A stretch of DNA of 63,773 nt, counting the filler, from Klebsormidium nitens (taxonomy: Eukaryota > Plantae > Klebsormidiophyceae): NCBI GenBank assembly GCA_000708835.1. It is 8 parts of 8 records of this genome, joined end to end, with 100 filler letters (N's around TTAATTAATTAA, not from the genome) between each part and the next. Parts side by side here need not be neighbours in the genome. Positions count along the whole stretch, not along the records: positions 4,035 to 20,430 come from DF238013.1; positions 20,531 to 25,498 come from DF238463.1; positions 25,599 to 33,539 come from DF238269.1; positions 33,640 to 54,198 come from DF237925.1; positions 54,299 to 57,833 come from DF238570.1; 3 more parts are not named here. The stretch is one strand, 5' to 3'. The notes beneath the pieces were generated by a model. It had not been told where the DNA came from. It searched no databases and saw only the letters and a program-made list of their open reading frames with translations. Positions 4,194-57,833 of the stretch are shown piece after piece; positions within the stretch are counted from its first letter, which is position 1; every line of letters starts with the position of its first letter. Made by a program: the position numbers and the translations under genes.

Positions 4194-4302
4194 GTCTCAG
4201 AATGAAGCCCTCGTACCTTACAGTCTGTCCAGAATAAAATGGCACACGACGAATCTGCGTCTGAAGGTCTTCAGCAAGAGCTTAGAAGCATCCGAATGCC
4301 AC

Positions 4303-4535
4303 ATCATAGCGGAAGCATCCGAAAGCAAGTATTCAAAGAATGCGTCCGAAAACAATTTCGGGTACTGACGGCTATAGCCACATCGCAACAGAGACATCCG
4401 AAAGTCAGTATCCGAAAAATGCGTCCGAAAACATTTTCGGGTACTGACGGCTACAGCCACATCACAGCGGAAGCGCCCGAAAGCAAGTATCCCTGAAACA
4501 TTTTCGGACGCCGAAGGCTACGGGTATAACATCTT
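4303..4535 (+). repeat. About 3 tandem ~75-bp subterminal repeats rich in RYRTCCGAA motifs
   Basis: aaaca(a/t)tttcgggtactgacggcta(t/c)agccacatc at about 4351 and 4428, with a degenerate third copy at about 4496. Confidence 0.75.
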
Positions 4536-4862
4536 GGAGCGAAAGGCGGTCATCTCTCCAGAAAACAGGTCCTGACCGCCAGAGATGGAAGTCTACATGA
4601 GAGAACGGGTAAAAACTCTTCCTTACAGTCTGTCCAGAATACAAAGACACACCTGGAATCTCTGATTCTCGAGAGTATCGTGGAACGTCTCGGACGCCAG
4701 CGTCCGAAACCCCAGCTTTAGAACCTTCCAAATCGCCACGTCGTAACGACAGGTGTCCGAAAAGAGACAGCCCAGAAGCATCTCCCATTCGGACGACCGT
4801 CAGAGAGAAATCTCGCTCGGAGTATATATACCACAAAACTTCCTTTCTCACGACATTCACAG

Positions 4863-6761
4863 ATGGACGATGGGACGGATGGCTTCGAGGGGACGAAGAG
4901 GAAGCGCCCAGACATCGCTCTACGAATCCAACAGCGAAAGGGCAAAGAGACCTCCGTGGTACAGACGGGATAGAAGGCCCTCTGTCAGGACCTCGGGATC
5001 AGAGACCGGATCGAAGAGATCATCCCAGAAGTGAGTCGCATCCGAATCGAGACCTGCCTCCTGCTCAACCTGCACTTCATCCGCCTTCTGGAGGAAGGGA
5101 AGCCCATTCCCGTCATCGACCAGAACTTGGTCGGACGTGCGATGCAGTGCACATATGCAAAGAAAGCACAAGCGGACGCGGAACTCCAAGAGACATTCGA
5201 CCACCACTACCTACCTCTCTGCCCCAACCGTCCGATCAACAACTGCCTCCCTCGCATCACCAACGTACTCCTGGACCTGCGCAACCAGCTCCTCAGCAAC
5301 ATCAAGAATCACGTCGCGGTCCTCTTCCAGTCACGGCACCGGGCCTTCATGAAGCTCCTCCTCAGAGAAGCAGCCCCGGGCGTGCCTTTCTTCGAGGAAG
5401 CGGACGAGGATCTGGAGTCGTGCACCCGGCTGCTGACGACCGCCACCTTGTGGCGCCCGAACGAGAGCGTCCAAGAGCTGCTACCGGAGTATCCTCGCAT
5501 CTACGGAAGGATCCCAGAAGCTGCGATCGAGTGCCTACAAGATCTGGTCGACTCAGTCAGGCCGGAAGTCGGGCCGCTGCCTGCGGCGTCCCAGAGCAGA
5601 CCTCACCTCTACGTGCCCTGGATGAGGATCATCAGCGAGGAGTCCTCGGACCGACAGCTGCGATCATTCTCCCTCGTGCCTCACGCCTCCTTCTCTGCAC
5701 CTTTCATCGCTATCACTCCTACAACGTGGCCCGAGCTGCAACCAAAGAGCGGCAAGAGAAAGGCTCCGGGAGAGCTCCGCGATGCTTTTCCCTCCATCGG
5801 ACGGCTGGAGAGCGGTGGGAAGACCTTCGCAGACCGGATCACCACGGACGGAGTGTCCGCGAGCGTGTATTTCCCGGTGGAGAAGAGGACGCCCCCTCCG
5901 GAGGACAGAATGGTCCACATCCACCCCAAACAGCGCGTGGTGGGATTAGACCCAGGAAAGCATCCTGACTTCCTCACCGGCATCGCCGTGACCGGCGACT
6001 GGGATGGCATCTCGCATCAGGAGGAGGTCATCGGCCTGGGGACCCGGGACTTCTACCACCGAGCGGGATTCAAGAATCGGACGTTCCTCATGCACGCCTG
6101 GATGTCCAGAGACCTGGATGTGGCAGCCTTCAACAAGGATGCTCCTTCGGGGAACACCGTGAGTCTGGAGAAGTTCGGGAAGAGGGTGACCTTCGTCTCT
6201 GCGAACCTGTACTGTCTGGTACGCTTCCACACCGCGAGGAGGGTCCGAAAGCTGAGACGGCGAGTGACGATCAAGAAACAGATCGAGGTGGACAGAGCCT
6301 GCAAGAAAATCACGGCAGGGAAGAAAACCGTGGTGGCTTTCGGAGCAGCACAGGTGGATGCAGGCAGGACCAAGAGGCAGTGTGGGCCATGCGAGTCGGT
6401 GAAGAGACGACTCAGCAGCCACCACAAGGCGACGGTGGTCTTGATTGACGAGTTTAGGACGAGCCAGGTGTGCAGCACGTGCCACTCGGACGTCAACAAG
6501 TTCGCGGTGCTCAAGAGGCAGCGGGTGATGGAGGATGGACTCCCGACGGTGACCGAAGTAGGGCGTCGCGAGGACGAGGACGGAGGAGGGAGGACGAGCT
6601 ACAAGACGTGCCACAACGTGCGAGCGTGTACTAACCCGCTCTGTCGCATGGTGTGGAATAGAGACGTCAACGCAGCTCGTAGCATAGCTTGGATTTGTAT
6701 GAGCATAGCGAGAGGCGAGGGCAGGCCGGCAGAGTTCACGAGAGCAGGAGTCTGGGGCTGA
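4863..6761 (+). pseudogene. Fanzor (Fanzor1/TnpB-like RNA-guided RuvC nuclease), ~632 codons, with one in-frame TAG at 4971-4973
   Basis: RuvC-I VVGLDPG, RuvC-II LIDEFRTS, Zn finger CSTC...CTNPLC and RuvC-III WNRDVNAA. The upstream in-frame ATG at 4863 gives MDDGTDGFEGTKRKRP...KETSVVQTG*KALC, which aligns with the family-B N-terminus (ECTVVKTSLNSFC). Confidence 0.9.
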
Positions 6762-6897
6762 CAGATAGATAGTTCAAAGACATAGCTGCCTAGAAACGAG
6801 TTCATCTAGGCACCTCGGTGAGAACCCGAGATACGGCTGAGTACTATGGCGAGTGTGCCATTTTACTCTGAACAGACTGTATACGCGGTTTCGGACG
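6762..6897 (+). ncRNA. Predicted omegaRNA of Fanzor A (scaffold to the element end plus flank-derived guide TACGCGGTTTCGGACG); boundaries approximate
   Basis: Hairpins TGCCTAGA/TCTAGGCA (6787-6812), CTCGG/CCGAG (6814-6830) and ATGGC/GCCAT (6846-6861) lie between the stop and the right end; the last 85 nt are conserved in the mini-element at 17586-17670. Confidence 0.7.
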
Positions 6898-6968
6898 CGA
6901 GCCGACCGTTTGGACGCCCCGCGAGAACAAGTCTGTGGAAGCCCTTTCGGACGCCACTTTCGGGCGTC

Positions 6969-8787: not shown

Positions 8788-11124
8788 CTATTGTACGTAA
8801 ACCCATCTATAGCCGGCTGCCAGGATACTCGTGTCGCGTAGTGCTTTTCTCAAACTGCTGTTGTTTCTCAAGCCGTGCTGCCGAACAGCCTCCAACACGG
8901 ATGAATATGTACCGCTGATCTGGCCGGTCATGACGTCTATCCTGTGAACCGGACGAGTGCGGTCTCTATTCTGAGCCTGCTCAGCCGTCGTCGCGAATCG
9001 CAGGTTTTCTAGGCGATTATTCGACGGCTGCCGATCGATGTGATCGACGCTCGTGTGGTGGTCACTCGGAGGACTCCCGAGGAACGTGTACGCCACCAGC
9101 CCGTGCACCGGTAAATTTCTACCACCTCTTATTCCCACATACATGTAGGAGTTTATACGCTTTCCGTACCAGCGCCTGCCAGTTGCACTCTGCACGCGGC
9201 CCGATGTACTGACGAAAATGTTCCTCAACGCAGTGCCCTTGTATACGGCGGGCTTCCAGATTTCTCCGTCCATTGTAGCCTGTTGTCTGAGGTAGTCCTG
9301 ATCGATCTGAAAACGAAAGCCACTCTGCATCCCGCCCCCGCTTTTCATGATTCGCTTCAGTTTGTCCTCCCCCACTCCAGTGGCTCTAGCAGCTTCTGCG
9401 ATGCTCGTGTATACCGAAGTGAGACCCGTGGAAACGTCCTCCGTTGACACGGGGATGGATGTGTGGGACGTCCAACCTTTCTTGGCGTCTGGGTTGTCTA
9501 AAGCAGTCTTCGCCACGTGGTCGGCCACGCTCAGCTCTTGGAGGTTTTGCCAAGAGTCATCCGGTTCGGTGCCCTCGGGATGAGGTACGATGTGGTCGCA
9601 GACCATACCGGGCCCGATTGGACGTCCCAGCTTCACTTCCAGGTTGAAACGGTGCCGTTGATAATACTTCGTTTCGCCCACCCCGACCACCCAGTATTTA
9701 CAGNNNNNNNNNNNNNNNNNNNNNNNNNNNNNNNNNNNNNNNNNNNNNNNNNNNNNNNNNNNNNNNNNNNNNNNNNNNNNNNNNNNNNNNNNNNNNNNNN
9801 NNNNNNNNNNNNNNNNNNNNNNNNNNNNNNNNNNNNNNNNNNNNNNNNNNNNNNNNNNNNNNNNNNNNNNNNNNNNNNNNNNNNNNNNNNNNNNNNNNNN
9901 NNNNNNNNNNNNNNNNNNNNNNNNNNNNNNNNNNNNNNNNNNNNNNNNNNNNNNNNNNNNNNNNNNNNNNNNNNNNNNNNNNNNNNNNNNNNNNNNNNNN
10001 NNNNNNNNNNNNNNNNNNNNNNNNNNNNNNNNNNNNNNNNNNNNNNNNNNNNNNNNNNNNNNNNNNNNNNNNNNNNNNNNNNNNNNNNNNNNNNNNNNNN
10101 NNNNNNNNNNNNNNNNNNNNNNNNNNNNNNNNNNNNNNNNNNNNNNNNNNNNNNNNNNNNNNNNNNNNNNNNNNNNNNNNNNNNNNNNNNNNNNNNNNNN
10201 NNNNNNNNNNNNNNNNNNNNNNNNNNNNNNNNNNNNNNNNNNNNNNNNNNNNNNNNNNNNNNNNNNNNNNNNNNNNNNNNNNNNNNNNNNNNNNNNNNNN
10301 NNNNNNNNNNNNNNNNNNNNNNNNNNNNNNNNNNNNNNNNNNNNNNNNNNNNNNNNNNNNNNNNNNNNNNNNNNNNNNNNNNNNNNNNNNNNNNNNNNNN
10401 NNNNNNNNNNNNNNNNNNNNNNNNNNNNNNNNNNNNNNNNNNNNNNNNNNNNNNNNNNNNNNNNNNNNNNNNNNNNNNNNNNNNNNNNNNNNNNNNNNNN
10501 NNNNNNNNNNNNNNNNNNNNNNNNNNNNNNNNNNNNNNNNNNNNNNNNNNNNNNNNNNNNNNNNNNNNNNNNNNNNNNNNNNNNNTCTGAACAGACTGTA
10601 TTGTGACGGCAGCCTTTGAGGACCTGTCCTGCCTTGGCCGAGAAAACCTGCCCATCCGGTCGGCCATAGTAATCCGTCATCACCGGATGCGGCTTCCAGT
10701 CTTCGGACGGGTCAGGATGAAACAGTGCCGCTTGCGGGGGACGATCCAGAAGCCTCTTCACGCGTCGTTCTTCCTTTGACACTTCACGCAAGTTAGCCCA
10801 AGAGTCGTCGGGCTCCTCCTCGCGAGCATCTCTCTTCTCCACTATCCTGTCGCAGATCATCCCGGGTCCGAGCAGTCGACCGAGCTTGCATTCTAGCACG
10901 AGGTTGTGCCTCTGATAGCTGACGGTTTTGTTTCCATGTGCTATAATCAAGACCCAATCGATCGTTTTCTGCGGAGAACCTTTCACACACCGCCCGGATT
11001 TTGCCGAATAGATCTTTCCATCCTCGCGCGAATAGAGGTGTGTGAAAGTGGGATGAGACTTCCACCCCTCGTCCTCTGGGGGTGCCTTCAGTTCCCTCCC
11101 TTCGAGTTTGCGCTTACCCAGCAT
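8788..11124 (-). pseudogene. Multi-domain NUMOD4/HNH homing endonuclease (~478 aa when repaired), interrupted by a family-A element
   Basis: Repeated W(K)xHP...YxRxDG..S modules, VDHIDRQPSNNRLENLRFAT (HNH) and HTH-like SIAEAARATG. Removing 9701-10598 and one TA restores LKGCRHNKYWVV in frame. Confidence 0.85.
9701..10598 (+). mobile_element. Family-A TIR element, mostly unassembled (N gap)
   Basis: The left gap edge reads TTA|CAG and the right edge reads TCTGAACAGACTG|TA, matching both family-A ends with a TA duplication; length depends on the gap estimate. Confidence 0.8.
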
Positions 11125-11213
11125 TATGTACAGACTCGTAATATATCTATCGTGCATCGACCGCGTGCCCTATATAGCCGCAGGAACCTGCCTGTACCAC
11201 TCGAGCCGCGCGC

Positions 11214-13387: not shown

Positions 13388-14122
13388 TACCAGGCACGCG
13401 ACTTTCCCGTCTTTACTTCCACGCGTGCCACTTGTCGAGACAAGTGTTGACAGTATCCACGAAAACATGGCCTCACATGGCCACGGTGCCACTTGTTCGA
13501 CGATAATCTAATTCTCTCTTCTTATTGGATAGAAAGCAGCAAAAGCTGGAGACATGTGCACATGTGATTGGCTTCTACGTGACGAATGGACCACCGATTT
13601 GTGAGGAAAAGGCGGGAACGAGTGCGTGGGTGCTTGACTGGCGTTGACTTCGACGGTATCACGGATATCAACCATTAGCGGGAAATACTACGTCATAATA
13701 TCCAAGTACAAGATTACCAGTACCAATATTAGTACGGCACCCATCGTTTTGTCATAGCTGCACTCGAAGTACATGTCAGCAACCGAAAAACCGCATGCTA
13801 CCAGGCACGCTACTTTTCCCGTGTTTATTTCCATGTGTCCATTTGCCCATGTGTCCAGACGGTTGTCCGTACTCCCAGAAACTTATCTGGCTTACATGCA
13901 TGCGTTCAGACGATATTCCGTACTCCCGAGAACTTATCTGAACTCACATGGCTTCGGTGCCACCTGCTCGACGGATAGTTCTTCTTATTGGACGACTGGA
14001 CCCGATCGCGAGAAAAGAATGCGGGAACAGGCGCGTAGGATATGGAAATTTTACGTCATAATATCCAAGTACGGTGCCCATTGTTTCGTCATAGATTGCA
14101 CCTGAAGTACATGTCAGCAACC
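13388..14122 (+). repeat. Degenerate tandem duplication (13388-13784 and 13799-14122)
   Basis: Shared blocks taccaggcacgc, cggtgccac.tg.tcgacg, ttcttattgga, tacgtcataatatccaagtac and gaagtacatgtcagcaacc. Confidence 0.8.
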
Positions 14123-15409
14123 CTAATTGATCCGTATATTATATCAGAAAAATATATTCGCTCGGCAGTGTCTAAAATTCTCTTTCGTATACCATAAGTC
14201 CGAGGTAGTGGTAACCGCCGCTGACGAGCAGGCTGAGTCACAACTGAGAATGATCATTCGCACTTTTTCACGTGCATATTTCGGTTTCGGGCGCGATAGC
14301 TACCCAAGGCGCGTTGCCTATAGTCTTTTCGGCTGCCCCTTCCGTTTCCACTTTGACGGTACCACATACCATATCGAGCAAGAGCTCAAACCTCACTGCT
14401 TCCTTCAGCATCGCTCACGCCTCCACGCCTCCTGAAAAGCGCTCACCTGGCTGACGGAGGAGCATGCCATTATGGCATCCGGCTTTTCGGCAGCAGACGA
14501 TGCGGGGTGAGAATCCTGGCCGAGCTTTAGCGCACATTGGGCTGGGTTCCTTCTTTCTGTGCAATCCTAATCGCCGTGCATCTACTGTGTGCTAGACCTT
14601 TGCAAGAGAGGTCACCAAATCCAGACCTATGTAGGCAGCCTAGAATTGCATTCATTAGGGTGGTGGGTTTTAAGAATTGCATCCAGTAGGATGGTGGAGT
14701 CCGGAAGTCAGACTGATTCTTACGTTCAAAAAGTTTCACCTTGGGTTTTTCTCAAACAACCCATCAATCTATTAGAGCAGATTCAGATTGCCTACAATCA
14801 GGATATTTCATTCCATAGGCTCTAAACCTGTACGCTTGATCTGAGCAGAATCGCAGAGTAGCAGAGGTAAGGGTTCCTTTTCCCTACTTTCTGCTTGGAT
14901 TTCTTCCTAGAAACTCATCAAAGCTGCAGAGTGGTGGTGAAGTCTGATACTTTACATGTAGGGTTGCTTCCTGATACCTCAGGTTTCTGCTTGGATAAAC
15001 CCTACTTTTTGCACATTTATAGGAGATGTGAAGCTGCACTTGCGATTCAGCACAGTGAGGCTCCTGGAGCGATCAACGACGCGTTTGTGGGTTTCCTTCT
15101 CGGGCAGCTGGAGTCGGCCAGACAGGCAGCCGAGAAGGCTAATGATGAGAACAGCCGGTTGCGCATTCAGTTGGAATTGTGCAACGAGGAAATCAAAAGG
15201 CTGATGAGCAGCGGGGGCTCTGGTCATCCTGGCCTGGAGCTTCCTAATTCTAGCATTCACACTTCGCATTCGAGCTAGAGAAGATCAGCACTAACCGCGA
15301 GGTAAGCTAGCAGTATGTGCCAACCTGCTGCTGCAGCACGATCAATTTCGGACGGCGTTCCGACTCGCCGATCAGGGCAAACCTCTTGTTGTAGAAGGTG
15401 CAGCCTTAG

Positions 15410-16095
15410 AGAGGTTTACGTGGAGCTTTGATAGTTGAGACCACAGAACCGGTGTTTGAATAGTGGGCTGAGTTGAGGTGTGACTTAGTCTGTAACTTAG
15501 TTGTACTTGTACTGAGGTTTACGTGGAGGTTTGGTTGTTGCAGATCACGGATGTAAGACTGAACCGGTGCTTATTACCAGTTTCGCCCAAACTGTCGCCT
15601 CTTTGACGTAACGCAGGTGACGAATAGGAGCGAGAAATGATAATAATACCAGAGTTGACTGGCTTTCCTCTGGCCGCCAGGGCTGGCCTGGTACCAGAAG
15701 AAACTTTTCGTTTTTAGGACATCACTTGCTGTGACTCCCTAGCTATACCGTAGACCTTCGGCCCATAACGAGTACACCTGCGGAACACCTCGCGAACTGA
15801 ATCACTGAGGTCCCATCGGAGGGACTGAGATGGTGCCTTTTGAATGAAGGTCTCTATCCGTTTTGCGACGGGGTATTCTAGGAGCAAGGGTCCAAGGTCA
15901 GCGAAGCCCAGTGATGCAACATGTGTTAGCATACTATCCCTTAAGGAAGAAAGTTAGTCCATACAAACGCGGTCAAACGCACTCAGAATTTCCAAGCGTT
16001 ACGTTCGAAGTGCGACACTCTGGACGAAAAGGGTAATAAATAGCTGGGCTGAGAGTCAAAGTGTAATTTAGTTTGTAACTTAGTTGTAAGATGCG
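15410..16095 (+). repeat. Two ~105-bp tandem units; the second is split by the family-B mini-element
   Basis: gaggtttacgtggag...gaaccggtg...atag.tgggctgag...tgtaacttagttgta occurs twice. Confidence 0.75.
15574..16036 (-). mobile_element. Family-B non-autonomous TIR mini-element with an omegaRNA-like end and a 72-aa ORF (15714-15932)
   Basis: Imperfect 16-bp TIRs TTACCAGTTTCGCCCA / TTACCCTTTTCGTCCA; TA duplications at 15572-73 and 16037-38 in a T-TA-A context; the first 26 nt match the Fanzor-B end (55709) with 1 mismatch. Confidence 0.8.
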
Positions 16096-16275
16096 GGTTG
16101 GGTCCGCGCAACTTACAGTGGTTCTGTGTCTGTACAAAGAGGATAGTCTGATAGGATGTATCCATATGCTCGTCAATAGAATCCGCTCATCTACAGATAA
16201 CCATACAAACTAGTTTAGGATCCCACAAACACTAAGCTGAATGTTTGTGTGTAGATAGTCTGGGTGGGGCTTCCC

Positions 16276-17585: not shown

Positions 17586-17766
17586 CAGTCTGTTCAGAGT
17601 AAAATGGCACACTCGCCACAGTACTCGGCCGTATCTCGGATTCTCACCGAGATGCCTAGATGAACTCGTTGTTCGGACGCTACCTGATGCCACGTGGTTG
17701 CTACGTGGTGCCACGTGTTGAAGTCGTTCTCGGACGCTAGTGTGCCATTTTATTCTGAATAAACTG
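17586..17766 (-). mobile_element. Family-A mini-element (181 bp) retaining the 3' 85 nt of the omegaRNA scaffold
   Basis: TIRs at both ends; TA duplications at 17584-85 and 17767-68; 17586-17670 is the reverse complement of 6795-6879 with 4 substitutions. Confidence 0.92.
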
Positions 17767-17772: not shown

Positions 17773-18991
17773 ATGTCCAGCCCTATCCCCTATCTCTAGC
17801 CCGATCGAGAGGTTGTACAAACTGTACGAAGCGGCAGAGTACCTCTATAATAAAGGCATAGGTCACGATCGGAGAGGCGATGAAGCTACGGCGCAAACAT
17901 ACTACGAACACGTATCAACTCTCGTAGACGAAGGATTGTTGCACGCCTCTGCATTGACAGCAATTCAGATGAGTCAAGTGCACTCGAAGATCGAAGATAT
18001 GAAAAGGTGGAAGGTATATCTGAAGAAGATATTGAGACGTTCCGATCCGACTCCGAAGGGCAACCTCGTACGCTTCGAAGAGCAGATCATAGGAGAGATC
18101 ATGCAAGCAAGAGATGATACCACGTTCAAGGATATCGGAGGTATGAAGCAAGTCAAGATCGCTCTCACCGAGATGGTCATATTGCCATCCGTTCGGAGCG
18201 ACATCTACACCGGGCTCAGGACTCCCCCGAGAGGCCTTCTCCTGTTTGGTCCCCCCGGTAACGGAAAGACGTACATCGCACGCGCCGTCGCGAACGAAGT
18301 CAAGGCGACCTTCTTCTCCATAAGTGCGACCTCGTTCGCGTCCTCTCTAGTAGGCGATGCGGAGAATCTCCTTCGAGCTCTGTTTACGGTGGCTCGGAAG
18401 AAACAACCTTCTCTCATATTGATAGACGAGATAGACAGCATCCTCACGAAGAGGTGCGAGAACGACCAGGAGTATACCCGCAAGCTGAAGACCGAGTTCT
18501 TCGTTCAATTCGACGGGGTGGCGACCGACAAGAGCGACAGGGTCACGGTCATCGCGGCTACGAACCTGCCGCAGGAGCTGGACGACGCAGCCGTGCGACG
18601 ATTCGAAAAGAGGATCTACGTCGGCTTGCCGGATCTCTCGACGAGAAGGCAATTACTGGAAAAGCATCTGCAGCCAAACATTCCGAATCCTAGATCACGT
18701 AAACTACCGAACGAGCTGAATTCCAATCAAGTGCATGACATCGCCGCCCTTACGAAATGCTACTCCGCGTCCGATCTGAATTCACTGTGCAAAGAGGCAG
18801 CTATGATCCCTCTGAGAAATCAGAGAGAACATATCCTCGATATCCCCGTAGAGAAGATAGAAGCAGTGACCTTCAAAGACTTCAGAGAGGCAGCAAAGGT
18901 CATCAAACCCAGCGTCAAGAGAGAGAGCCTGGCGGCTCTCGAGAAGTGGAACGCCGACTTTGGATCCTTTCCCAACAAGGAGCTGGACTGA
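17773..18991 (+). pseudogene. Spastin/Vps4-like MIT-AAA ATPase, intronless, frameshifted at the 5' end by a 7-bp duplication
   Basis: LRTPPRGLLLFGPPGNGKT (Walker A, spastin-like), IDEID (Walker B) and AATNLPQELDDAAVRRF; removing one CCCTATC copy (17781-17794) joins ATG 17773 to the ORF. Confidence 0.85.
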
Positions 18992-23913: not shown

Positions 23914-25600
23914 GCGGCGCTCGAGGTCGGCAGCCTAATCGCGTGCCCCCCCGGCCAAATACTTCATGAGGAAGTTGAACATGTCATTCTCATTCAAAAC
24001 CACGGTTGGTTTCAACTTAAGCTCCGACTTAAGTGTGTTGTAATTCTGGCGCAAGTGCAATATGCTTCGCCGCGTTCGGGTCACCCGTAAAGAGTCCCGT
24101 TCCATGCTACATAGTTAGGATCGACATGCTGTCGGAATCGTCTAACTCAAAACACACAACGGCGGAAGGTGTTCGAATTGCAGCATACTCAGTTTGCGTC
24201 TCTTGATGTGCATGCACAGTCGATTGTGATGACAAATGAGGCGAAGCGTTACTTGATTCGGCAAGACTTCGACTCTCTTCAATTGCTTGAATAAGGTCAA
24301 TGTCTTCGTCTCAACTTCGCTCACAATTTCTCTATGTGGAAAGCTGAATCCAGAGCGAAGTCTACTCTGCCACAAAAGAGCAGTACAACTCCTCTCTCTA
24401 AGAACTACCACTTCAATGGTATCCTTATACTCGTCTATCTCCTTGGGTTCCTTGGATTGAAGTCACGGCTGCGACCGTTCTTCCCCCCCGCACGTCCAAA
24501 GCCACGGCCCCCGCGGTTCTGGGCGTGAAAACTTGCGCAAGGGATGAGGCGCGTCAGTCCTGATGCTTAGGACACGTGTCAAGTCGTTGGCACGGTTTAG
24601 AATCGTACAGGGTTCTCCTCGGGGGCACCCTGCAGAAATACAAGTGTGGAGACACTTGCAAGACCAGTCGCTGTGAGAGCACTAGCCAATCTTAACCAAA
24701 TCCGTCTACAAAGTTCCTGGAACTTTGCAAGTACAAAGGCCCCCTTAAGGCAGCCTTGCAGTGTCAAAAAGAAAGTAGCACAACCCCTCTGACGGGCCAG
24801 GCTGTCACAACTCGTAGCACAGCGCCTCTACTAAGGGCCTGACTTTCCCACTTGTCACCAAAACTACAAGTGTCTGACACACTTCAACAATTACCACTGT
24901 ACGAGTGAGTAATGCTGTCTAGACGGCGGCCGTCGCTGAAAGGACTCAACGACCCGTCCTAACAAACAATGATGGTCTAGAACAAACTTCCTGAGGAGGC
25001 TCCACACTCGGTGAGGCCTCCCAAGGCAAGAATAGTCACCCAGACCCCTGCAAACGAGCGGGCTATCGCGCTATATAGAAAGACAAGAAGCATGCCCCGC
25101 GAAAGGCCTACAGCGAACCAAGCACCCTTAGCACCGAGAGCGGCGCATGGTACCTAGTCTGCGAATTTGCAATGGGCCCGTTGCCAACACACAAAAACTC
25201 AGGCGCAAGCAAGCAAGTCACTCGTCAGCAAGCATGCCTCCCGGCAGTTGCATGTCTAGGCGATGTCCTACTCGAAGCTCAAGAGCACTGACGTCACTGT
25301 AACACGATCGCAAGCGAGCAGGAATGAAGCAGAAAGAGAGATATGGTGCAAGAGAGAGACAAAGCAAGCAGGACTGAGTCAACACCGAGAGTGGTGCTGA
25401 CCTGGAAACGGCGCGGGGGCTGTAGGAGTCGATGGCGCGCCCAGGGAGTAGCCCAGAGCCAGCAGATGCTGGAGACTGGCGATGATAGCTCCCGGGTCNN
25501 NNNNNNNNNNNNNNNNNNNNNNNNNNNNNNNNNNNNNNNNNNTTAATTAATTAANNNNNNNNNNNNNNNNNNNNNNNNNNNNNNNNNNNNNNNNNNNNTG

Positions 25601-26391
25601 TACGTGCGCAGGACCCTGGCGGGCGAGTTCGTGGTCACAAACTCTCACCTCATGGCCGATTTGGTCCGGCTGGGGCTCTGGAACGAGTCGCTGAAGGAGC
25701 AGATCATGGCCAACCGGGGGTCCATCCAGGCTATCCCTGAGATCCCGGACGACCTCAAGGAGCTGTACCGCACGGTGTGGGAGATCAAGCAGAAGGTCGT
25801 GATCGATTTCGCAGCCGATCGCGGGATCTTCATCGATCAGTCCCAGAGCTTGAATTTGTTCATGGCCAAGCCGACGCCTGCAAGCCTCTCCTCGGCGCTA
25901 GTCTACGGCCACAAGCTGGGCCTCAAGACAGGTGAACACGCATGGAGCGCAAACACGGAGGTTTCAGAGCTCTCCCCTGGGAGGAAATATTGGTGTTTCA
26001 AATTCTCAAATACTTTTGAAAGTTCCGCTCCATCTGCGCACGCGTGGGACGTGCAGTTGTTCACAACATCTTTTGTATTGTGTGAGGGATGTGCTGCGCG
26101 CATTGCGCGCAAACACGGAGGTTTCAGAGCTCTCCCCTAGGAGGAAATATCGGTGTTTCAAATTCTCAAATACTTTTGAAAGTTCCGCTCCATCTGCGCA
26201 CGCGTGTGACGGCCTGCTAACTACAACGTCATTGTATTGTGCAAGGGATGTACTACTTGAGAACCCTGCCATCCACTACACCGACGGCGGTCACGGTTCC
26301 TGTTAAGAGGGCGAGAAAGGAGAAAGTAGTCGAAAAGCAAGACAAAAGTGCTGTCTGTACAGATGAGGTCTGTGTGAGCTGCTCCGCTTGA
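25601..26391 (+). CDS. RNR1: Ribonucleotide reductase large subunit (R1), 3' part, with a 314-bp GT-AG intron (25932-26245)
   Basis: [29 protein letters not shown] and GLKTG|MYYLRT after splicing; short viral-style tail [11 protein letters not shown]. Confidence 0.9.
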
Positions 26392-26577
26392 GGGGTTGGT
26401 GGAGTAGAAAGTGGCTCCAGTATAAGCTGATACAAACCAAACTTGTTGCATAACGAGCACGTATTTCGTTTCCGTTCGGTTGGTAAATGTTGCCAGACGC
26501 TACTGCTTTGGAGATACCGAGCGCTGACGGTGCGGCATCTGCATAGAGGTTGCTACATTGCTGAGTGAACTACGTTG

Positions 26578-27186
26578 TCATCTTGCTTCTTTGATCAAGT
26601 GTAAGTGAATCCTATTGATCACATCCAGAATGTCAAAGTCTTTAACATCAGGATTGAATCTTATCCAACTGCATCCAAGCGTGCGGTTTATGAAAGCCGT
26701 TCGTTCTGCATCGCGTGTCTTGTTGTATCCCTTGTGGTCCTTCTCGTCGCATTCAATTGTCAGATTGTATGCCACGAAGTAGAAGTCAAGATAGTAGTTG
26801 CCAACAGCATACTGTCTGCTAATTGTATGCCCCTTGAAGGCTTTGAAGAAGCAGCGTGCTGCATGCATTTCATGATAGTACGCCTTGAACCTTGGGTCTA
26901 TTGGAATCCCCAAGGATCTGGCCACATCGATACTGTTCGGCAACCTTGAACGACATACGAGAAAATTTGCTCCTTCAGCTGTCGTGTATCGTGCACGAAG
27001 GTCGTTACCATTTCCTTTGGATCCAATGTTGACAGCCTTGATTAGCAAATCTGCAGGGATATGGGTGCTTGCCGCCTTCTTAAAGTTGGTGTATCCAAGA
27101 CAACGTGCCAGATCATTTGCCTTGTAGTAAGTGACCCCTTGGAACTCCAGTTGAGCAACGGTCAAGAAGCTCTCTTTCGAAGCCAT
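26578..27186 (-). CDS. BRO-N-like DNA-binding domain fused to a DUF559/PD-(D/E)XK-type endonuclease
   Basis: YYKANDLARCLGY...H N-terminal motif; YYLDFYF, IECDEKDH and WIRFNPD C-terminal motifs common in NCLDVs. Confidence 0.75.
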   Translation of the reverse strand: MASKESFLTVAQLEFQGVTYYKANDLARCLGYTNFKKAASTHIPADLLIKAVNIGSKGNGNDLRARYTTAEGANFLVCRSRLPNSIDVARSLGIPIDPRFKAYYHEMHAARCFFKAFKGHTISRQYAVGNYYLDFYFVAYNLTIECDEKDHKGYNKTRDAERTAFINRTLGCSWIRFNPDVKDFDILDVINRIHLHLIKEAR

Positions 27187-27479
27187 TTGCCCTGTTGTAC
27201 GAGAGGTGTAGTCCCTAAGCTTCTGCACGAAGGAATCCCCATCAATTGTACGCTAAGCGGATATATGCATGGCGTGCAACTCTCTAAAGTATTGCAGAGA
27301 CTGAAACACCGGTAGTCCTGCCACTTTTGCACGCTATCTCCTTCCCTGGTTCGAGAGCCCAGCCAGTGATGAGAGAAGTAATAAGAGAAGTGAAGGAGCG
27401 CATTGTGCTGCTTTGCATAGCAGCAATCAAAGGCTTCGTTGCTTAGGGCGACGCTTCACCATGATATTGCATAAGAAGC

Positions 27480-29166
27480 ATGGAGGAGAAGAGAGAGGCC
27501 ATCGTGCTGCTGCCGTCACAGCAGCCTCACGTGGCAAAGCTCTGGAATATCCTACGGCGTCATGCATTCGCTCTAGACTTTTCATCCTTGGGTTCGGGGA
27601 AGACATTCTCGAGCAGCAAGATCGCCCTTGAGCTCGAGATGCCCCACGTGGTCGTGATCTGCCCCGTTTCTGTCCAGCCAAAGTGGCAGGAGATGCACGA
27701 GAAGTATGGGGTGCCAATCAAGCACAACCTGAGCTACTGTGGGATCCGTTCGATGAAGGGGAAGCAGCCGAAGCACGGGCTTCTGACCCGAAGGGACTAC
27801 ACTGTGGCCGTCCCTCAGCCTCGCGGGGAGCCTCGGCGCGTGGAGAAGACCGACTTTGGGATCACCAACGCCTTCAGGTCGCTCCTGGCAGAGGGCGTTC
27901 TCCTGATTGCGGACGAGATGCAGCACCTCAAGAACGTGTCCTCGCAATTTGCCGCCTGCCAGACACTGATAAAGGCGATTAAGGAGTCGTGCGAGGCCGG
28001 GGGCCGGTCGAGAGTGCTTATGCTGTCGGGGAGCCCGATCGACAAGCAGGAGCAAGCCGTCACCCTGTTCCGTTCCCTGAACGTCATGCACCATGCGGAG
28101 CTGTGCAAGTTCAATCCGGGGCTCAGGCAGATGGAGCTGCGTGGCATCTCGGACATCATCGAGTTCTGCCGGAGCGTCGACCCCGTTGCCACCGATCGGA
28201 TCCTCGCAGCAAAACGCTACTGGATGTGCTCAGAGTCCGTGATGCGTCCCATGTGCTACACCCTGTTCCAGGAAGTCGTCAAGCCGCACTTTTCCAGCGC
28301 GATGCCGCCCCCTGCCCCCGGCTGCACCCTGCACAAGACGAACGCTTTCTACCGGATTGACCACGAGGAGGATCGCAGGANNNNNNNNNNNNNNNNNNNN
28401 GGACATGGGCCGCGGGATCGAATCTTTGCGCGCCATGTGCGCTGCTCTGGTGAAGATCGAGAGTGCAAAGGTTCAGACTTTTGCGCGCGTGGCCCTCAAG
28501 GCGCTGAAGTCCAACCCGCAGAAGAAGCTTGTCATCTGCGTTAACTACAACGACTCTCTACACAGACTGCGGGACCTGCTAAGTTGCTACTCGCCGTTGG
28601 TGCTGAACGGGACGGTGCAGAAGGAAGAGCGCAAGCACGTAATCGACAAGTTTCAGGCTCCGAGCGACGAGCACAGGGTGCTCCTGGGGAACGTAGCCGT
28701 CTGCTCAACGGGGATAGATCTCGATGATAAGTTTGGGGGCTGGCCCCGGCTCGCGTTGATCAGCCCGAATTATCACACACTCAATCTCTACCAGCTGGGG
28801 CACCGTTTTCAGCGCATGGACACCAAGTCATCGGCTACTGTGCATATGGTTTTTGCACAGCACGCCCACGAGCTGCCGATCCTCGACGCACTCTCCCGGA
28901 AGGGCGGCGTAATGCGAGAGACGACGCCTGAGCAGGTGGCTGCGGGCATCCTCTTTCCCGGCAGCTTTCCCAGCTGGGTGGAGGAGGATCTCGAGACCTC
29001 GCTGAAGAGGGCGGGCCTCGAGGGCCTGAAGCGCAACGCCGAGGAGCGCAAGTGGGCACGGCAAGTCGTTGGCGCAGCCGTTTTGGAATGGGGGCTTCGA
29101 CCGGGAGGGGTCTTGTACAAGATGGCGATGCAGCGATTTGCAGAGAGTGCAAGAAGCACGTTATGA
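27480..29166 (+). CDS. Superfamily II (SNF2-like) helicase; a small N gap at 28381-28400 causes an apparent frame change
   Basis: LGSGKT, ICP, IADEMQH, LSGSP, LNG, STGIDL and HRFQR helicase motifs. Confidence 0.85.
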
Positions 29167-29646
29167 TTACTGGTACAAACATTGAAATCCGGACGTGCTT
29201 GGCAGGCACAACATCCTGCGGGGTGTGAACAGCATTGCATCTTTGTCCAGGAAATTCGCCGTTGCCTGCTTCTTAGGGTCCGCCTTCTCGACCTTGAAGA
29301 CCTTCTTCACATCTGCAACACTGGTTTTGATGGCCGCTTTAGCTACCTTTTTCACAACCTGAATTGGTTTAGCTTTTGGAGCATCCGCCTCTGCAACAAC
29401 TGGAGCAGCGGGCAGAGAGCTTTTCTCCTTTGGTGGCTTGCGCGTGTCTGGCTCGGTTGTTAAGGGCTGCACCTCATTGCCAGGTTCCTGCTCGTCTTCT
29501 TCGTTCCCATCATCATCGTCCTCTCCATCAAAATCATCATCATTTGCATCCTCTGCATCCTCGAATCTTTCTGGCATGTGTGCCGAACAGAGAAGCAGGA
29601 TGCAGAATAGAAGCACTCCTATCACAATCAGCCATTGGGTGTCCAT
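29167..29646 (-). CDS. Membrane-anchored acidic/Lys-rich protein (NCLDV virion-protein-like)
   Basis: N-terminal TM helix followed by an ERF motif, a D/E tract and a K/A-rich region. Confidence 0.65.
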   Translation of the reverse strand: MDTQWLIVIGVLLFCILLLCSAHMPERFEDAEDANDDDFDGEDDDDGNEEDEQEPGNEVQPLTTEPDTRKPPKEKSSLPAAPVVAEADAPKAKPIQVVKKVAKAAIKTSVADVKKVFKVEKADPKKQATANFLDKDAMLFTPRRMLCLPSTSGFQCLYQ

Positions 29647-29826
29647 GACTTAGCCGCAGAAATTCATTGCACATATGCAGGCTTGTGAGTGAGATTGCAT
29701 CATGGGTCCACGGTCACGCTATTGCAAATGCATTTGTCAAAGTGGTGGACCTGAAGGAGGTCCATGTGCAAAGCTCTTGCAAGGCTTAGGGACATGTGTA
29801 ACCTGACAAAGGCATCTATTCGCGAG

Positions 29827-31672: not shown

Positions 31673-31721
31673 GGTAACGGCAAAGGCTGTGTTCTTCGCT
31701 CTGGGGCTCTGGTTCTTAGTT

Positions 31722-32435: not shown

Positions 32436-32580
32436 GTCGTGGCCACATCCCTGTGAGGACAGCCGGATCAAGCGTACAGGTACTGGCGCATACTTGGGGA
32501 GCATAAACATTTTGCGAGGCACAATGTTTGTGAAGGACAATTGTCAGCCCGGTGATGTCACATATATTCGTCCCACAGAT

Positions 32581-33087
32581 TCATGGCATTCTGACATTCT
32601 TATGCGTGAATGCGAAAACCATCATGATTCTGTCGCAATTCGGATTTATGCTTCCATCGGGACCGCTAAAGTCGTCATATGTGAGAGTGGTACCGTCGTG
32701 TTTCTTGAATTGAATACGCATGTCGTCGAGGCGTGCCAGGGGGGGGTCATAGATTGTGGGCCCAGTGATGTTGTCACCACACAGAGTATTCAACTGTAAG
32801 TAATCCGAGTTTGAATAACAGCCTATTGCAAACGCATCTTCTCTGCCATCTTCGGAGCATTTCACGGTCCCATTTAAAGGGTCGATTTGGATTATCACAT
32901 AATCTTCCATTACCATCTTTGCAATCTGTAGCTGCACTAGCTTTATGGAGGATATATATTTGAACGGTGCAGATGCACTTGGAATCCGCACTCGGAAATC
33001 GAATGGAGAATCATGAGAGTCACGCACACGATTGTCCACAAGTACAAAAGTCGTCACCTCTGCAGGGCTTTTGGTAGGGTTCTCCAT
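32581..33087 (-). CDS. NCLDV minor-capsid/penton-like (single jelly-roll) protein
   Basis: VLVDNRVRD...F.VRI...ISSIKL N-terminal pattern and YDPPLARLDDMRIQFKKHDG C-terminal pattern, as I recognise from giant-virus structural proteins. Confidence 0.55.
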   Translation of the reverse strand: MENPTKSPAEVTTFVLVDNRVRDSHDSPFDFRVRIPSASAPFKYISSIKLVQLQIAKMVMEDYVIIQIDPLNGTVKCSEDGREDAFAIGCYSNSDYLQLNTLCGDNITGPTIYDPPLARLDDMRIQFKKHDGTTLTYDDFSGPDGSINPNCDRIMMVFAFTHKNVRMP

Positions 33088-33312
33088 TACTGCTTTCTTT
33101 ACTGTACAGAGACAAACTTTACACAATCTATGACGCGGGCAAACAAAGCAAAGACGCAATATACCTGTTGGAATGGAGTCGAAGCATTTGCAAGCGGGAC
33201 ATTGAAGTCAAATGGTGAATCAGATGGGGAACGCTTGCGATTGTCGATCAAAACGTATGTACAGACAGCGTTCGCTTGCGGGTGTCCGTATGTAAGTGGG
33301 ACAGATTACTTC

Positions 33313-33537
33313 CTACGGCTGATCAAAGAGAGAGGAACCTAAGAACTGTCGAAAGGCCATCTGACCACCTCGTAGCGTACGAACAACTGTCCCCGTGCCC
33401 CCACAGCGTACGGGGCAGCCCGCCTCCATGAAGTTGTCCTTGTGGGTGACGGTATAGCAGACCGAGCAGGCTGCATGCGCGCAGCTGGTGCTGAGGCTCG
33501 ACAGCTGGTCCAGCTCCTCTGCACCGCAGAGATGGCA
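33313..33537 (-). CDS. RING-finger C-terminal fragment (5' end in a gap; absent from the ORF track)
   Basis: CHLC-x-CAHAACSVC-x-CPVRC spacing. Confidence 0.65.
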   Translation of the reverse strand, partial: CHLCGAEELDQLSSLSTSCAHAACSVCYTVTHKDNFMEAGCPVRCGGTGTVVRTLRGGQMAFRQFLGSSLFDQP

Positions 33538-33640
33538 CANNNNNNNNNNNNNNNNNNNNNNNNNNNNNNNNNNNNNNNNNNNNTTAATTAATTAANNNNN
33601 NNNNNNNNNNNNNNNNNNNNNNNNNNNNNNNNNNNNNNNA

Positions 33641-55493: not shown

Positions 55494-55689
55494 GTTGCTG
55501 CTGTACAGCTGGGAGCACCATCCCGCATATCACTAAGATCCGGTCTTCCCGGATCTTCGAGAGCTTGACGGAACGCGTCCGTCTTACGCGAGTTGGAGAG
55601 TATCTCTAGACGGCATATTTCGCGCATGGTGACTGCTATAGAGCGCAGCTACACATACAAGGCATCGAGAGCGCGTGTTGTCATAAGAA

Positions 55690-55858
55690 AGCTCGAAGTG
55701 GGGAATTATTACCATTTTCGCCCAAACTGTCGCCCGTACCGGGCGCTTCTTCGGACGGAAAATGAATAATAATACCGGATTGGGTCCATACGTGTACGGA
55801 CTGGTACCGGCTATCCACGAACCGCCGGGTTATGAAGCCCGGTATTCGCGAACAATCC
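55690..55858 (-). ncRNA. Predicted omegaRNA of Fanzor B (scaffold plus guide ATTCCCCACTTCGAGC); boundaries approximate
   Basis: Minus-strand stems GUCCGUAC/GUAUGGAC (a G-U pair forms only on this strand), CGCCCG/CGGGCG and a terminal CAGUUU...AAAAUG hairpin; the terminus is conserved with the mini-element at 15574. Confidence 0.65.
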
Positions 55859-57833
55859 TCACATGGTAACCGACCGGCAAAACTCCACCGGTCTGGCGCG
55901 GCCTTCGAGCCGCAGCCTCAACAGCCTCAGGATGTTCCGGGCAGCGTTCACGTCTCGGTTCACCGTCATGCCATTACAGCCACTGTTTCGGCAGTGGAGC
56001 ACACTGTGAACTTTGACGGTCTTCACCGCCCCATCCTTGCACCGCTTCTCCGAGTATTGATTGCGCAGCTGCGCCTTGCAATCGAAGTGCAGCTTGCTGG
56101 TCCTGAACTCGTCCATCGAGACCACCCTGCAATGCTTGCGGAGCTCTCGCTCCAACCGCTTCACGGGCCCAGAAGGAGATCCCTTGATGATGCCTCCGGA
56201 GTCCTTGTTAGACCAGTCTCCGAAGCCCACAACCGTCTTGTAACCCACTCGCCTCGTTATGGCCTTGCAGAGTGCATGCAGCTTCTTCTGAGCTGAGATG
56301 TACCGCTTGAACTTGAGCCCTCTGAATCCCTGCCTCATGTGGTAGACGAGGAGCATGTCGAGCCTGGGCAGCATAAAGTGCACGTAAGCGAGAAACTTGG
56401 TGCTCTCCGATGTCTTCTTGGTAGGCATGTTCCGGATGGCCTCGAGCACCTCCGGGCTCTTATCGTACCACCGCTTGATCTTGGCGTTGCTGTGCTTGTA
56501 CTTGGCGTCGCCATAGAATTCTCGAGTTGAGCACTTCAGCTTCTCTCCTTCTTCGTTGACCATGACAAAGAGGTCTCGCCTGCCTGGATCTAGGCCCCAC
56601 AGCTCCTCTTCTCCCGTGAGGTCGGGGAGCGTTGCTTCGCCTGGGGCTTGCCTGGGTTTTGGCTTCCTCAGCACGATGCAGACGGCCTTCCCGTCCGTGA
56701 GGATCTCGCCTGCGAACTTGCGGTTGCACGTCTCGAACTTTGCGATGTCGAAGAGGTCCCTCCAGTAGTCGTCAGCCACCTTCCTGAACTCCGCTCCCGA
56801 GGCTGGAAGCTTGACCCCTCCCCTCTTGAGAAGCCCATAGAGTCCGTTGGTGCACATCTTGAGATGATTGCACTCGAAGCCCCTCTTCGTAGGTAGGAGG
56901 CTGAAGAGCCTCAGCTGCTTACCTTTCTTCAGTTCTTCTTCTGTCAGGGGGTGATGCGACTCCATGTAGCGCAGGAACATGTATTGCATTGGCATGAGTA
57001 TGTGAGGGGTGGAGTCTGCCCTACCAGTAGTGGCTTTCGGAAGCATGGCTCGGTACCTCAAAACCAGTGGGTCGTCGCCTTCGTACTCATCAGCGAACAT
57101 GTCCCGCATCTTGGAATAGCATGAAGGGCCGTCGAGGGAGTACTCGTGCTTCAGGTAGCGCTTGAAGCGCTTGTAGAAGTTGGTGGCGATAGAGTTCTTG
57201 GTGCACGTGGCCATCTGAAGGCTCGCATTCTGGTACCAGCCTGAAGAGAGATGCTCACAGTCCGGATGCAGACAGTCTGCAGGGCGTGATGCCAGGTAAA
57301 GCTCTACGGTCTCCCTGAGGTAGAGGTCTTTGACGGAGCTCTTCTTCCTACCGGCCACACTGACGGCAGAGAGGCAGTTGTAGAAGAAGGGTTGGTCCAG
57401 AGGTGGAACTTCGCGACCCAACTCAGACATCCGTAGTACATGAAGGTTAGCAAGGATGTAGGCTTCACAGATAGCCTTATTCACTTCCTTGAGCACGCTC
57501 TCCAGAGGGAGGGCCCTGGCAGCCTCCTTGCAGAAGCTGTTCAGGCTGGTCTTGACCACGGTGCATTCGGTCTCTTTGTTCCTCAGGGCCCGGAGCTTGA
57601 CGTCCTCTCGGGTCCTAGGCTCTTTGAAGAGCTTGCTCACGTAGGCCAGGCATTCATGGTGGAGAGCGACGTCGGGGGGCTTCTTTGGTGGCATCAGACC
57701 ACCCCTATGCGTCTCCTTAGGAAAATAGATCTCGGGAATTTTACGCACGGCCCAGGTTATGTATACGAGCCTAGCGCTTATAATGTCGGACTCTCGTATA
57801 CATCAACCAAACAGGTGCTTATATGCAACAATC
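55709..57833 (-). mobile_element. Family-B Fanzor-carrying TIR element (left end lost in a gap)
   Basis: Right end TTACCATTTTCGCCCAAACTGTCGCC with TA at 55707-55708, shared with the mini-element 15574-16036. Confidence 0.75.
55859..57694 (-). CDS. Fanzor (Fanzor1/TnpB-like RNA-guided RuvC nuclease), 611 aa from the first ATG, apparently intact
   Basis: WGLDPG (RuvC-I), SMDEFRTS (RuvC-II), HFDC...CRNSGC (Zn site) and VNRDVNAARNI (RuvC-III); VVGFGDWS and GPVKRL motifs; N-terminal MPPKK NLS-like sequence. Confidence 0.93.
   Translation of the reverse strand: MPPKKPPDVALHHECLAYVSKLFKEPRTREDVKLRALRNKETECTVVKTSLNSFCKEAARALPLESVLKEVNKAICEAYILANLHVLRMSELGREVPPLDQPFFYNCLSAVSVAGRKKSSVKDLYLRETVELYLASRPADCLHPDCEHLSSGWYQNASLQMATCTKNSIATNFYKRFKRYLKHEYSLDGPSCYSKMRDMFADEYEGDDPLVLRYRAMLPKATTGRADSTPHILMPMQYMFLRYMESHHPLTEEELKKGKQLRLFSLLPTKRGFECNHLKMCTNGLYGLLKRGGVKLPASGAEFRKVADDYWRDLFDIAKFETCNRKFAGEILTDGKAVCIVLRKPKPRQAPGEATLPDLTGEEELWGLDPGRRDLFVMVNEEGEKLKCSTREFYGDAKYKHSNAKIKRWYDKSPEVLEAIRNMPTKKTSESTKFLAYVHFMLPRLDMLLVYHMRQGFRGLKFKRYISAQKKLHALCKAITRRVGYKTVVGFGDWSNKDSGGIIKGSPSGPVKRLERELRKHCRVVSMDEFRTSKLHFDCKAQLRNQYSEKRCKDGAVKTVKVHSVLHCRNSGCNGMTVNRDVNAARNILRLLRLRLEGRARPVEFCRSVTM

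What the first reader, a model, noticed from the sequence alone, without database searches (positions are those of the whole stretch)
4221..57833. All Fanzor elements sit in giant-virus DNA: a possible RNA-guided defence against the parent virus
Seen: all five copies (4221, 9701, 15574, 17586, 55709) lie in the virus-like contigs, and none in the retrotransposon or decayed contigs. Three disrupt apparently functional viral sites: the RNR2 TATA, the HNH coding sequence, and 5 nt upstream of the AAA ATPase ATG. The 15574 copy sits in a non-viral-looking insert within a viral contig. Each right flank yields a guide (TACGCGGTTTCGGACG, TTGTGACGGCAGCCTT, GTCTCCGCATAGCAAA, ATTCCCCACTTCGAGC, AGCACCGGTTCAGTCT) that with a TTA TAM matches the uninterrupted allele. 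Inferred (speculative): an endogenised virus seeded with omegaRNA cassettes could act as a dispersed guide bank that cuts incoming wild-type virus or drives homing into it.
Basis: inference. Interest (0 to 1): 0.82.

Follow-up and report, generated by a model that had tools for sequence, protein, structure and literature searches.

The report
Virus-borne Fanzor transposons in algal genome
Five copies of two jumping-gene families of the RNA-guided DNA-cutter (Fanzor) type sit in or beside giant-virus-like DNA in an alga's genome; they are most likely selfish passengers that came with the virus, as already reported in another green alga, and likely not a host defence against it.

Summary
The five elements and their five flank 'guides' are real. 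They are two unrelated Fanzor1 transposon families (inverted repeats, TA duplication, TTA on all 4 visible left flanks) in scaffolds matching Klebsormidium nitens records. Four lie in one 16-kb scaffold; a second virus-like scaffold has none; one copy sits in a non-viral-looking insert. The 'functional' sites are not: RNR2 has an in-frame stop, the AAA ATPase a frameshift, the third gene is itself a homing endonuclease, and the 4221 Fanzor has a stop at codon 37. A guide matching its own empty site is built into every TnpB/Fanzor transposon, so it is no sign of defence. Empty alleles do exist, at about 1:1 in one sample and in a soil metagenome, but 3 of 3 readable ones mismatch the guide within its first four bases, a possible footprint of past homing. 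No close free virus was found. Relatives cluster on the viral-insertion scaffold of Asterochloris, and Fanzor/Tc1 families with miniature copies are published for the Chlamydomonas endogenous virus. Verdict: new member of a known kind, likely virus-borne selfish homing elements now decaying; host guide bank about 7%.

The parts
4221..6879 (+). E1, family A composite element: outer left TIR 4221, inner left TIR 4626, Fanzor gene, right TIR; TA on both sides, TTA on the left
4863..6761 (+). Fanzor A gene, in-frame TAG at codon 37 (4971-4973); RuvC motifs GLDPG, DEFRTS, RDVNAA and zinc-finger cysteines present; 92% identical to KFL_005560180
6785..6897 (+). Predicted omegaRNA of E1 (scaffold to 6881, guide 6882-6897); fold z = -2.8; last 87 nt 95% identical to E4
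4035..4193 (-). RNR2 5' end with in-frame TGA at codon 26; contigs of X2, X3 and X5 read TGG there
9701..10598 (+). E2, family A copy seen only as 3 nt of left end, 882 N and 13 nt of right end; interrupts an HNH/NUMOD gene at a TA
8788..11157 (-). HNH_3/NUMOD1 homing-endonuclease-type gene split by E2; paralogues at 29764-32435
13420..16270 (.). ORF-poor, non-viral-looking insert that holds E3 (limits approximate); also covered by X5 contigs
15574..16036 (-). E3, family B miniature element (463 nt, TIRs 21 of 30 alike, structured 3' end z = -4.2), guide 15556-15571; absent from an X5 contig
17586..17766 (-). E4, family A miniature element (181 nt), guide 17568-17583; absent from an X1 contig
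17773..18991 (+). AAA ATPase gene; the ATG next to E4 is out of frame with the long ORF; an X1 contig lacks 7 nt at 17789
55709..57833 (-). E5, family B element; right TIR at 55709, structured 3' end (z = -5.2), guide 55691-55706; left end not in the scaffold
55859..57694 (-). Fanzor B gene, 611 aa, open frame, RuvC motifs present; record KFL_016210020
4035..20430 (.). Virus-like scaffold: RNR2, kinase, HNH, deoxynucleoside kinase, AAA ATPase, ATG8-like; long single-exon ORFs; no NCLDV hallmark gene detected by Pfam
25599..33539 (.). Second virus-like scaffold (RNR1, Bro-N/DUF559, helicase, three HNH ORFs) with no element

Best explanation
These are two families of Fanzor1-carrying, TA-inserting transposons with miniature non-coding copies, and they most likely lived in the giant virus and entered the algal genome with it. 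Shown: the anatomy (TIRs, TA duplication, TTA on the left, structured right end, RuvC motifs), polymorphic presence between alleles, and decay on the element-bearing allele. Inferred: a Tc1/mariner-type transposase supplied in trans inserts them at TTA; a transcript running out of the right end makes an RNA whose last ~15 bases are the flank; Fanzor cuts TTA+flank on an empty copy (sister chromatid, second integrated copy or co-infecting virus) and repair copies the element back, which is selfish homing. Inferred: they stay concentrated in viral DNA because they arrived in it, were probably transcribed by its programme, and are tolerated in methylated, dispensable DNA; today they are likely mostly silent.
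For: Anatomy; a family-B relative in the same species is fused to a DDE_3 transposase (P0153); a K. nitens Fanzor1 has a measured TTA TAM (PMC10530073). Precedent: three Fanzor+Tc1 families, guide-only and non-autonomous copies in the Chlamydomonas endogenous virus, packaged in virions (10.1101/2024.09.03.611062); ghost omegaRNA loci in a fungus (PMC10432273); homing role (PMC13565253). Cross-species: 4 of 4 named Asterochloris family-B relatives are on scaffold 80, which carries 441 kb of a viral insertion; Aster-02321 has RPKM 0.01. The motif CGTCCGAA occurs 13 times in the window against 2.3 expected, 12 in the viral scaffold and 1 in E5; 5 are in E1's left arm and it stands before TATA-like boxes of dNK, RNR2 and Fanzor A, which suggests shared viral-type promoters. 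Decay. Empty alleles mismatch the guide at position 4 (X1-3), 2 (X5) and 2 plus an indel (E4 site, X1), as expected if perfect targets were removed by homing.
Against: No whole genome was held, so enrichment was not measured genome-wide. E3 sits in a non-viral-looking insert that X5 shares without E3, so the elements also moved into non-viral DNA, possibly after integration. One family-A gene model is fused to an F-box/LRR domain of eukaryotic type, and scaffold kfl00665 holds two family-A copies and an expressed gene with an Arabidopsis best hit. Family-B relatives are also common in oomycete genomes, whose context was not checked. No close Fanzor relative was found in IMG/VR (best segments 20-37%). 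The promoter role of the motif is inferred, and the second virus-like scaffold has no exact copy.
Confidence: 0.7

Rival explanations
1. Safe-haven accumulation: the elements are ordinary host transposons that insert anywhere and survive in dead, methylated viral DNA and other junk because insertions there cost nothing.
For: E3 lies in a non-viral-looking insert; insertions differ between very similar alleles; the element-bearing alleles are pseudogenes; all 12 other Fanzor-bearing scaffolds of this species seen are under 60 kb, a class holding roughly 23% of the assembly, which fits repeat-rich DNA of any origin; viral genes here are methylated.
Against: The five non-viral junk scaffolds hold about 71% of the window's TTA sites and no copy; the shared promoter-like motif; the Asterochloris and Chlamydomonas parallels.
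Confidence: 0.16
2. Host-co-opted guide bank: the alga keeps omegaRNA cassettes in its endogenous virus and an intact Fanzor elsewhere, and uses them to cut incoming wild-type virus.
For: Intact nucleases exist (E5; other family-A copies); miniature copies keep a folded RNA end and ghost omegaRNAs work in another species; empty alleles exist; two guides point at conserved viral genes' upstream regions; mismatches in surviving empty alleles show that cutting may have mattered.
Against: Guide = flank follows from the anatomy of any copy; no array or target bias; one guide targets non-viral DNA and one a selfish HNH gene; insertions are not shared between the window allele, its sister allele and X5; the known empty alleles would likely escape; nearest other dNK relatives are 68-69% identical and 36% in IMG/VR; guide searches in IMG/VR gave 1 hit, in a phage-type gene, and 0 hits; viral genes are reported methylated.
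Confidence: 0.07
3. Virus-versus-virus weapon: a latent, still reactivating copy of the virus uses its Fanzors, possibly packaged in virions, to cut co-infecting relatives that lack the insertion; any host benefit is a by-product.
For: Proposed for the Chlamydomonas virus, where Fanzors are in virions; a second, better-preserved allele of this viral region exists at about equal depth in X1-X3; promoter-like motif shared with viral genes.
Against: The allele with the elements carries stops and a frameshift; nothing here shows virions or reactivation; mechanistically this is homing seen from the virus's side.
Confidence: 0.07

Closest known systems
Fanzor/IS630-Tc1-mariner elements of the Chlamydomonas reinhardtii endogenous giant virus (10.1101/2024.09.03.611062; passages read)
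   Same: Several Fanzor1 families in an integrated algal giant virus, with full-length, Fanzor-plus-guide and non-autonomous copies, alongside HNH-3 homing endonucleases; inter-viral competition already proposed.
   Different: There the virus is active and copies are >99% identical and carry a transposase; here copies differ by 4-13% in protein, several genes are broken, no transposase is in the window, and the host is a streptophyte alga.
KnFNuc and the K. nitens Fanzor1 entries of Jiang et al. 2023 (PMC10530073; passages, Discussion and Data S1 searched)
   Same: Same species; TTA TAM measured in vitro; family-A relatives KFL_005560180 and KFL_006200070 are in Data S1 as family4.
   Different: The passages read do not mention a viral setting; which family KnFNuc belongs to could not be read (main supplement PDF too large); the one family-B motif searched was not found in Data S1.
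Spu-1 Fanzor1 and ghost loci of Spizellomyces punctatus (PMC10432273; passages read)
   Same: TIR elements with a ~75-nt scaffold and 14-15-nt flank guide; protein-less copies forming a repertoire of guides.
   Different: No viral context described in the passages read; expression and cleavage were shown there, not here.
TnpB/OMEGA restorative and non-restorative homing (PMC13565253; passages read)
   Same: Left duplication read as part of the TAM, right flank as guide, empty allele as target.
   Different: Shown in bacteria; for Fanzors in their native eukaryotic hosts it remains inferred.

Membership tests
Fanzor1 | RuvC triad with the second acidic residue just before the zinc finger; ~600 aa | tested here: met
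   GLDPG / DEFRTS / RDVNAA and cysteines in both proteins; Cas12f1-like TNB domain just under the Pfam cut-off; 92% identity to a protein listed in the Fanzor catalogue
Fanzor1 | Conserved structured RNA region at the right end followed by a variable flank | tested here: met
   87 nt shared by E1 and E4; fold z -5.2, -4.2, -2.8 for E5, E3, E1 but only -1.5 for E4; a 198-nt E1 window gave -1.0; E2 not visible
Fanzor1 | omegaRNA expressed and RNA-guided cleavage next to a TAM | not testable with these tools
   No small-RNA data; TTA TAM published for a K. nitens Fanzor, TTA at 4 of 4 visible left flanks
Tc1/mariner-type transposon | TIRs and TA duplication | tested here: met
   the HNH frame is continuous across E2 with one TA; X5 joint skips 465 nt = E3 plus TA
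Tc1/mariner-type transposon | DDE transposase in an autonomous copy | tested here: inconclusive
   None in the window; DDE_3 fused to a family-B relative (83% to E5) elsewhere in the species; none seen for family A
Giant endogenous viral element | NCLDV hallmark genes (capsid, PolB, A32, VLTF3) | tested here: inconclusive
   None among the 40 window ORFs scanned; reported for this species' genome (PMC5294986; 10.1101/2025.04.15.648976)
Giant endogenous viral element | Dense single-exon genes of viral type, chromosomal copy level | tested here: met
   RNR1, RNR2, dNK, Bro-N, HNH, helicase; two alleles at similar low depth in X1-X3; junction to host genes not in the window
Host RNA-guided antiviral memory (CRISPR-like) | Guides acquired from the invader into a dedicated, maintained locus | tested here: not met
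   Each guide is the element's own flank; insertions differ between alleles and samples
Host RNA-guided antiviral memory (CRISPR-like) | Matching targets in circulating virus | tested here: inconclusive
   2 of 5 guides searched in IMG/VR: 1 unrelated hit, 0 hits; no close virus in that collection; natural empty alleles mismatch
Host RNA-guided antiviral memory (CRISPR-like) | Expression in the host and protection from infection | not testable with these tools
   needs small-RNA sequencing and a virus isolate

The most novel reading that the evidence does not exclude
The integrated virus brought a self-updating RNA-guided immune memory: every Fanzor jump into viral DNA writes a new guide, intact Fanzors elsewhere in the genome load them, and viruses or sister copies with a perfect TTA+guide site are cut. 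The mismatches near the TAM in 3 of 3 readable empty alleles would then be natural escape mutations, an in-genome footprint of Fanzor cutting in a eukaryote.
Probability: 0.08. Interest if true: 0.85.

Novelty: new member of a known kind. Interest (0 to 1): 0.32.

Why it matters
As filed, it extends a known pattern (Fanzor transposons riding endogenous giant viruses) from chlorophytes to a streptophyte alga and puts the already studied K. nitens Fanzors in a viral setting; a search for Klebsormidium + giant virus + Fanzor returned only the Fanzor survey, and Fanzor + GEVE only the Chlamydomonas work. The useful extra is that one sample holds occupied and empty alleles side by side, with mismatches next to the TAM, which offers a direct test of the open question of what Fanzors cut in their own hosts. 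If the defence reading were true it would be a eukaryotic DNA-targeting adaptive memory against giant viruses.

Tried and rejected
No whole genome was held. No RNA holder was listed for 4035-9700 and one RNA-type run laid no contig on 4035-20430: not used as evidence on expression. Family-A alignment in JGI metagenome contigs: 102 pattern hits, none confirmed; family-B alignment: 4 short loci, context uninformative. Single-protein Fanzor scans of IMG/VR: one 26% hit and none. Exact look-up of 10 window ORFs found 1. The kinase search of 50% representatives (next relatives 66% and 39%) cannot show absence of near-identical viruses. The E1 guide hit in IMG/VR (L029) lies in a phage-type head-tail-connector-like gene (my reading of the ORF) with no other similarity to the window: taken as chance. 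The high-light transcriptome supplement lists only changed genes, so the absence of Fanzor ids there says nothing. The Coccomyxa elongata paper gave no statement on a viral insertion, so the clustering of 5 listed relatives (g725-g1171) on one scaffold is unexplained. Asterochloris fam_562 (11 of 12 on scaffolds 80/120; six more members at RPKM 0.01-0.19) mixes domains, so only the 4 sequence-confirmed relatives were counted. CpG and CHG ratios did not separate viral from host segments. The tree is the quick version with long branches; used only to show two families. Three look-ups of earlier findings returned nothing. Contig depth was used only as a rough guide.
Full report
Setting. The window is eight small scaffolds joined by linkers: a Plavaka-transposase scaffold (1-3934), a virus-like scaffold (4035-20430), a DIRS-like retroelement scaffold (20531-25498; gag knuckle, methylase), a second virus-like scaffold (25599-33539; RNR1, Bro-N/DUF559, helicase, HNH), a 20-kb decayed scaffold, a 3.5-kb scaffold with an intact Fanzor (54299-57833), and gypsy and copia scaffolds (the labels DIRS-like and decayed are my reading). 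Named records of Klebsormidium nitens match the proteins and have the same scaffold lengths. Phycodnavirus-like core genes and methylated endogenous giant-virus regions are published for this species (PMC5294986 and 10.1101/2025.04.15.648976, passages read; supplements of the preprint are closed and may list these scaffolds). No capsid, PolB or A32 gene was found among 40 ORFs scanned, so 'giant virus' here rests on gene content and that literature.

The elements. All five are present, in two families. Family A (E1, E2, E4) has 27-nt TIRs starting CAGTCTG; family B (E3, E5) has TIRs starting TTACC. The two Fanzor proteins share about 25% identity and form separate clades. Each end is flanked by TA, and TTA stands left of all 4 visible left ends. 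Both proteins keep the RuvC motifs. E1's gene has a TAG at codon 37; E5's is open. E3 and E4 are miniature copies with the RNA end only. E2 is an assembly gap between two ends. E1 has two left ends (4221, 4626), and an abundant contig in X1 and X4 joins 4623 to 6787, so E1 looks like a Fanzor element nested in a miniature copy. Right ends fold better than shuffles for E5, E3 and E1, not clearly for E4. Contig depth at the family-A TIR is about 380 against 12 for each single allele in X1, a rough hint of some 15 copies, so the window shows a small part of the family.

Is the distribution more than chance? In the window, the three virus-like scaffolds hold 39% of bases and 29% of TTA sites outside the elements; 5 of 5 gives P = 0.002-0.009, but four copies share a scaffold and the scaffold-level figure is 0.107. 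Counting E3's insert as non-viral gives 4 of 5, P = 0.011. Outside the window, 14 gene models with Fanzor parts lie on 12 scaffolds, all under 60 kb, a class I estimate at 23% of the 104-Mb assembly; repeats break assemblies, so this does not prove a viral setting. Fused neighbours in those models are ThyX, an ABC1-type kinase (name), a kinase with a short basic ORF, and a weak kinase-like piece, which I recall as typical of algal giant viruses but did not test by phylogeny; one is an F-box/LRR, one a DDE_3 transposase, the rest uninformative. One scaffold with two copies also has an expressed plant-like gene. Of 3 single-contig left flanks printed for X5, one matches by eye (23 of 26 bases) the start of the window's ORF 16279-17544, i.e. 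a further insertion in a virus-type spacer; I could not place the other two. In Asterochloris 4 of 4 named family-B relatives are on scaffold 80 of 151, the scaffold with most of a 540-kb viral insertion; I did not confirm their coordinates inside it. So 'enriched in viral DNA' is likely; 'all' is not shown.

Are the sites functional? RNR2 has an in-frame TGA, and contigs of X2, X3 and X5 read TGG. The ATG beside E4 meets a stop after 8 codons; an X1 contig lacks 7 nt at 17789. The HNH gene is of the homing-endonuclease type. The element-bearing allele is therefore the decayed one; the order of insertion and decay is unknown.

Empty alleles. They exist. X1-X3 (one sample) hold the E1 junction and an E1-free allele at about equal depth (12.1 and 11.8 in X1), X1 holds an E4-free allele, and the soil metagenome X5 holds E1-free and E3-free alleles. 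A second dNK copy on another scaffold agrees with a duplicated viral region. Of these 4 empty alleles 3 could be read: against the E1 guide the X1-X3 allele differs at position 4 and the X5 allele at position 2; against the E4 guide the X1 allele differs at position 2 and lacks one base near position 10. With 2-3% local divergence (X5: 2 of 187 and 10 of 381) three mismatches within five bases of the TAM have P = 0.001-0.003, with 10% divergence 0.07. This is post hoc, two cases are the same site, one change is a CpG transition, the seed length is recalled from TnpB/Cas12 work, and the E1-free allele also has 15 extra bases between two TTA sites, so it is not the simple pre-insertion state. 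It is a lead for past homing, and it means the targets actually found would likely escape. Whether X5's DNA is alga or free virus was not determined.

Free viruses. None close was found: dNK relatives drop from the species' own copies to 68-69%, IMG/VR gave 36%, and 2 of 5 guides searched gave one unrelated hit and none. These collections are thin for soil-alga viruses, so this is weak.

Mechanism. A guide that matches the empty site is the standard anatomy of TnpB/Fanzor transposons and serves homing (PMC13565253 passages; PMC10530073 Discussion). The Chlamydomonas endogenous virus already shows several Fanzor/Tc1 families with guide-only and non-autonomous copies, with inter-viral competition proposed (also reviewed in PMC13359090, passages), and protein-less guide repertoires are known from a fungus. 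One local clue favours viral residence: CGTCCGAA is over-represented (13 against 2.3), confined to the viral scaffold and E5, repeated in E1's left arm and placed before TATA-like boxes of viral genes and of Fanzor A; its role is inferred. I therefore read the elements as virus-borne selfish homing transposons, now decaying (0.70), with safe-haven accumulation (0.16), host defence (0.07) and virus-versus-virus use (0.07) as rivals.

Verdict: new member of a known kind; interest 0.32, raised slightly by the side-by-side occupied and empty alleles that make Fanzor's native role testable.

Noticed in passing
window 4260-4800, 6890-6953, 13341, 17672, 55750: CGTCCGAA motif, 13 copies against 2.3 expected, in three 79-nt repeats of E1's left arm and upstream of viral nucleotide-metabolism genes; candidate viral promoter element borrowed by the transposon.
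   Followed up: partly
window 4218-4221 and 6880: The E1-free allele has 15 more bases between two TTA sites than the simple empty site, suggesting an adjacent deletion or an end that moved to a nearby TA and so changed the guide.
   Followed up: partly
window 8727-8790 and 11247-11310: 64-nt direct repeat (95%) on both sides of the HNH gene; an X1 contig joins 8672 to 11214, i.e. an allele without the HNH gene, as expected for a mobile homing-endonuclease gene.
   Followed up: no
window 19670-20035: ATG8-like gene in the virus-like scaffold, close to the AAA ATPase with a Vps4-type C-terminal match: possible membrane-remodelling genes captured by the virus.
   Followed up: no
window 19402-19674 and 54300-55490: Two coiled-coil ORFs share a short YHPDK-containing segment (39% over 51 aa), reminiscent of a J-domain (recalled); the main link between E5's scaffold and the viral scaffold.
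   Followed up: partly
window 29764-32435: Three tandem HNH/NUMOD ORFs with 70% DNA repeats in the element-free viral scaffold.
   Followed up: no
window 20531-25498: Retroelement-like scaffold with zinc-knuckle gag and a cytosine-methylase match.
   Followed up: no
P0032, P0036, P0179, P0200, P0201: Five family-B relatives of Coccomyxa elongata (g725-g1171) on one scaffold; may mark an undescribed viral insertion.
   Followed up: partly
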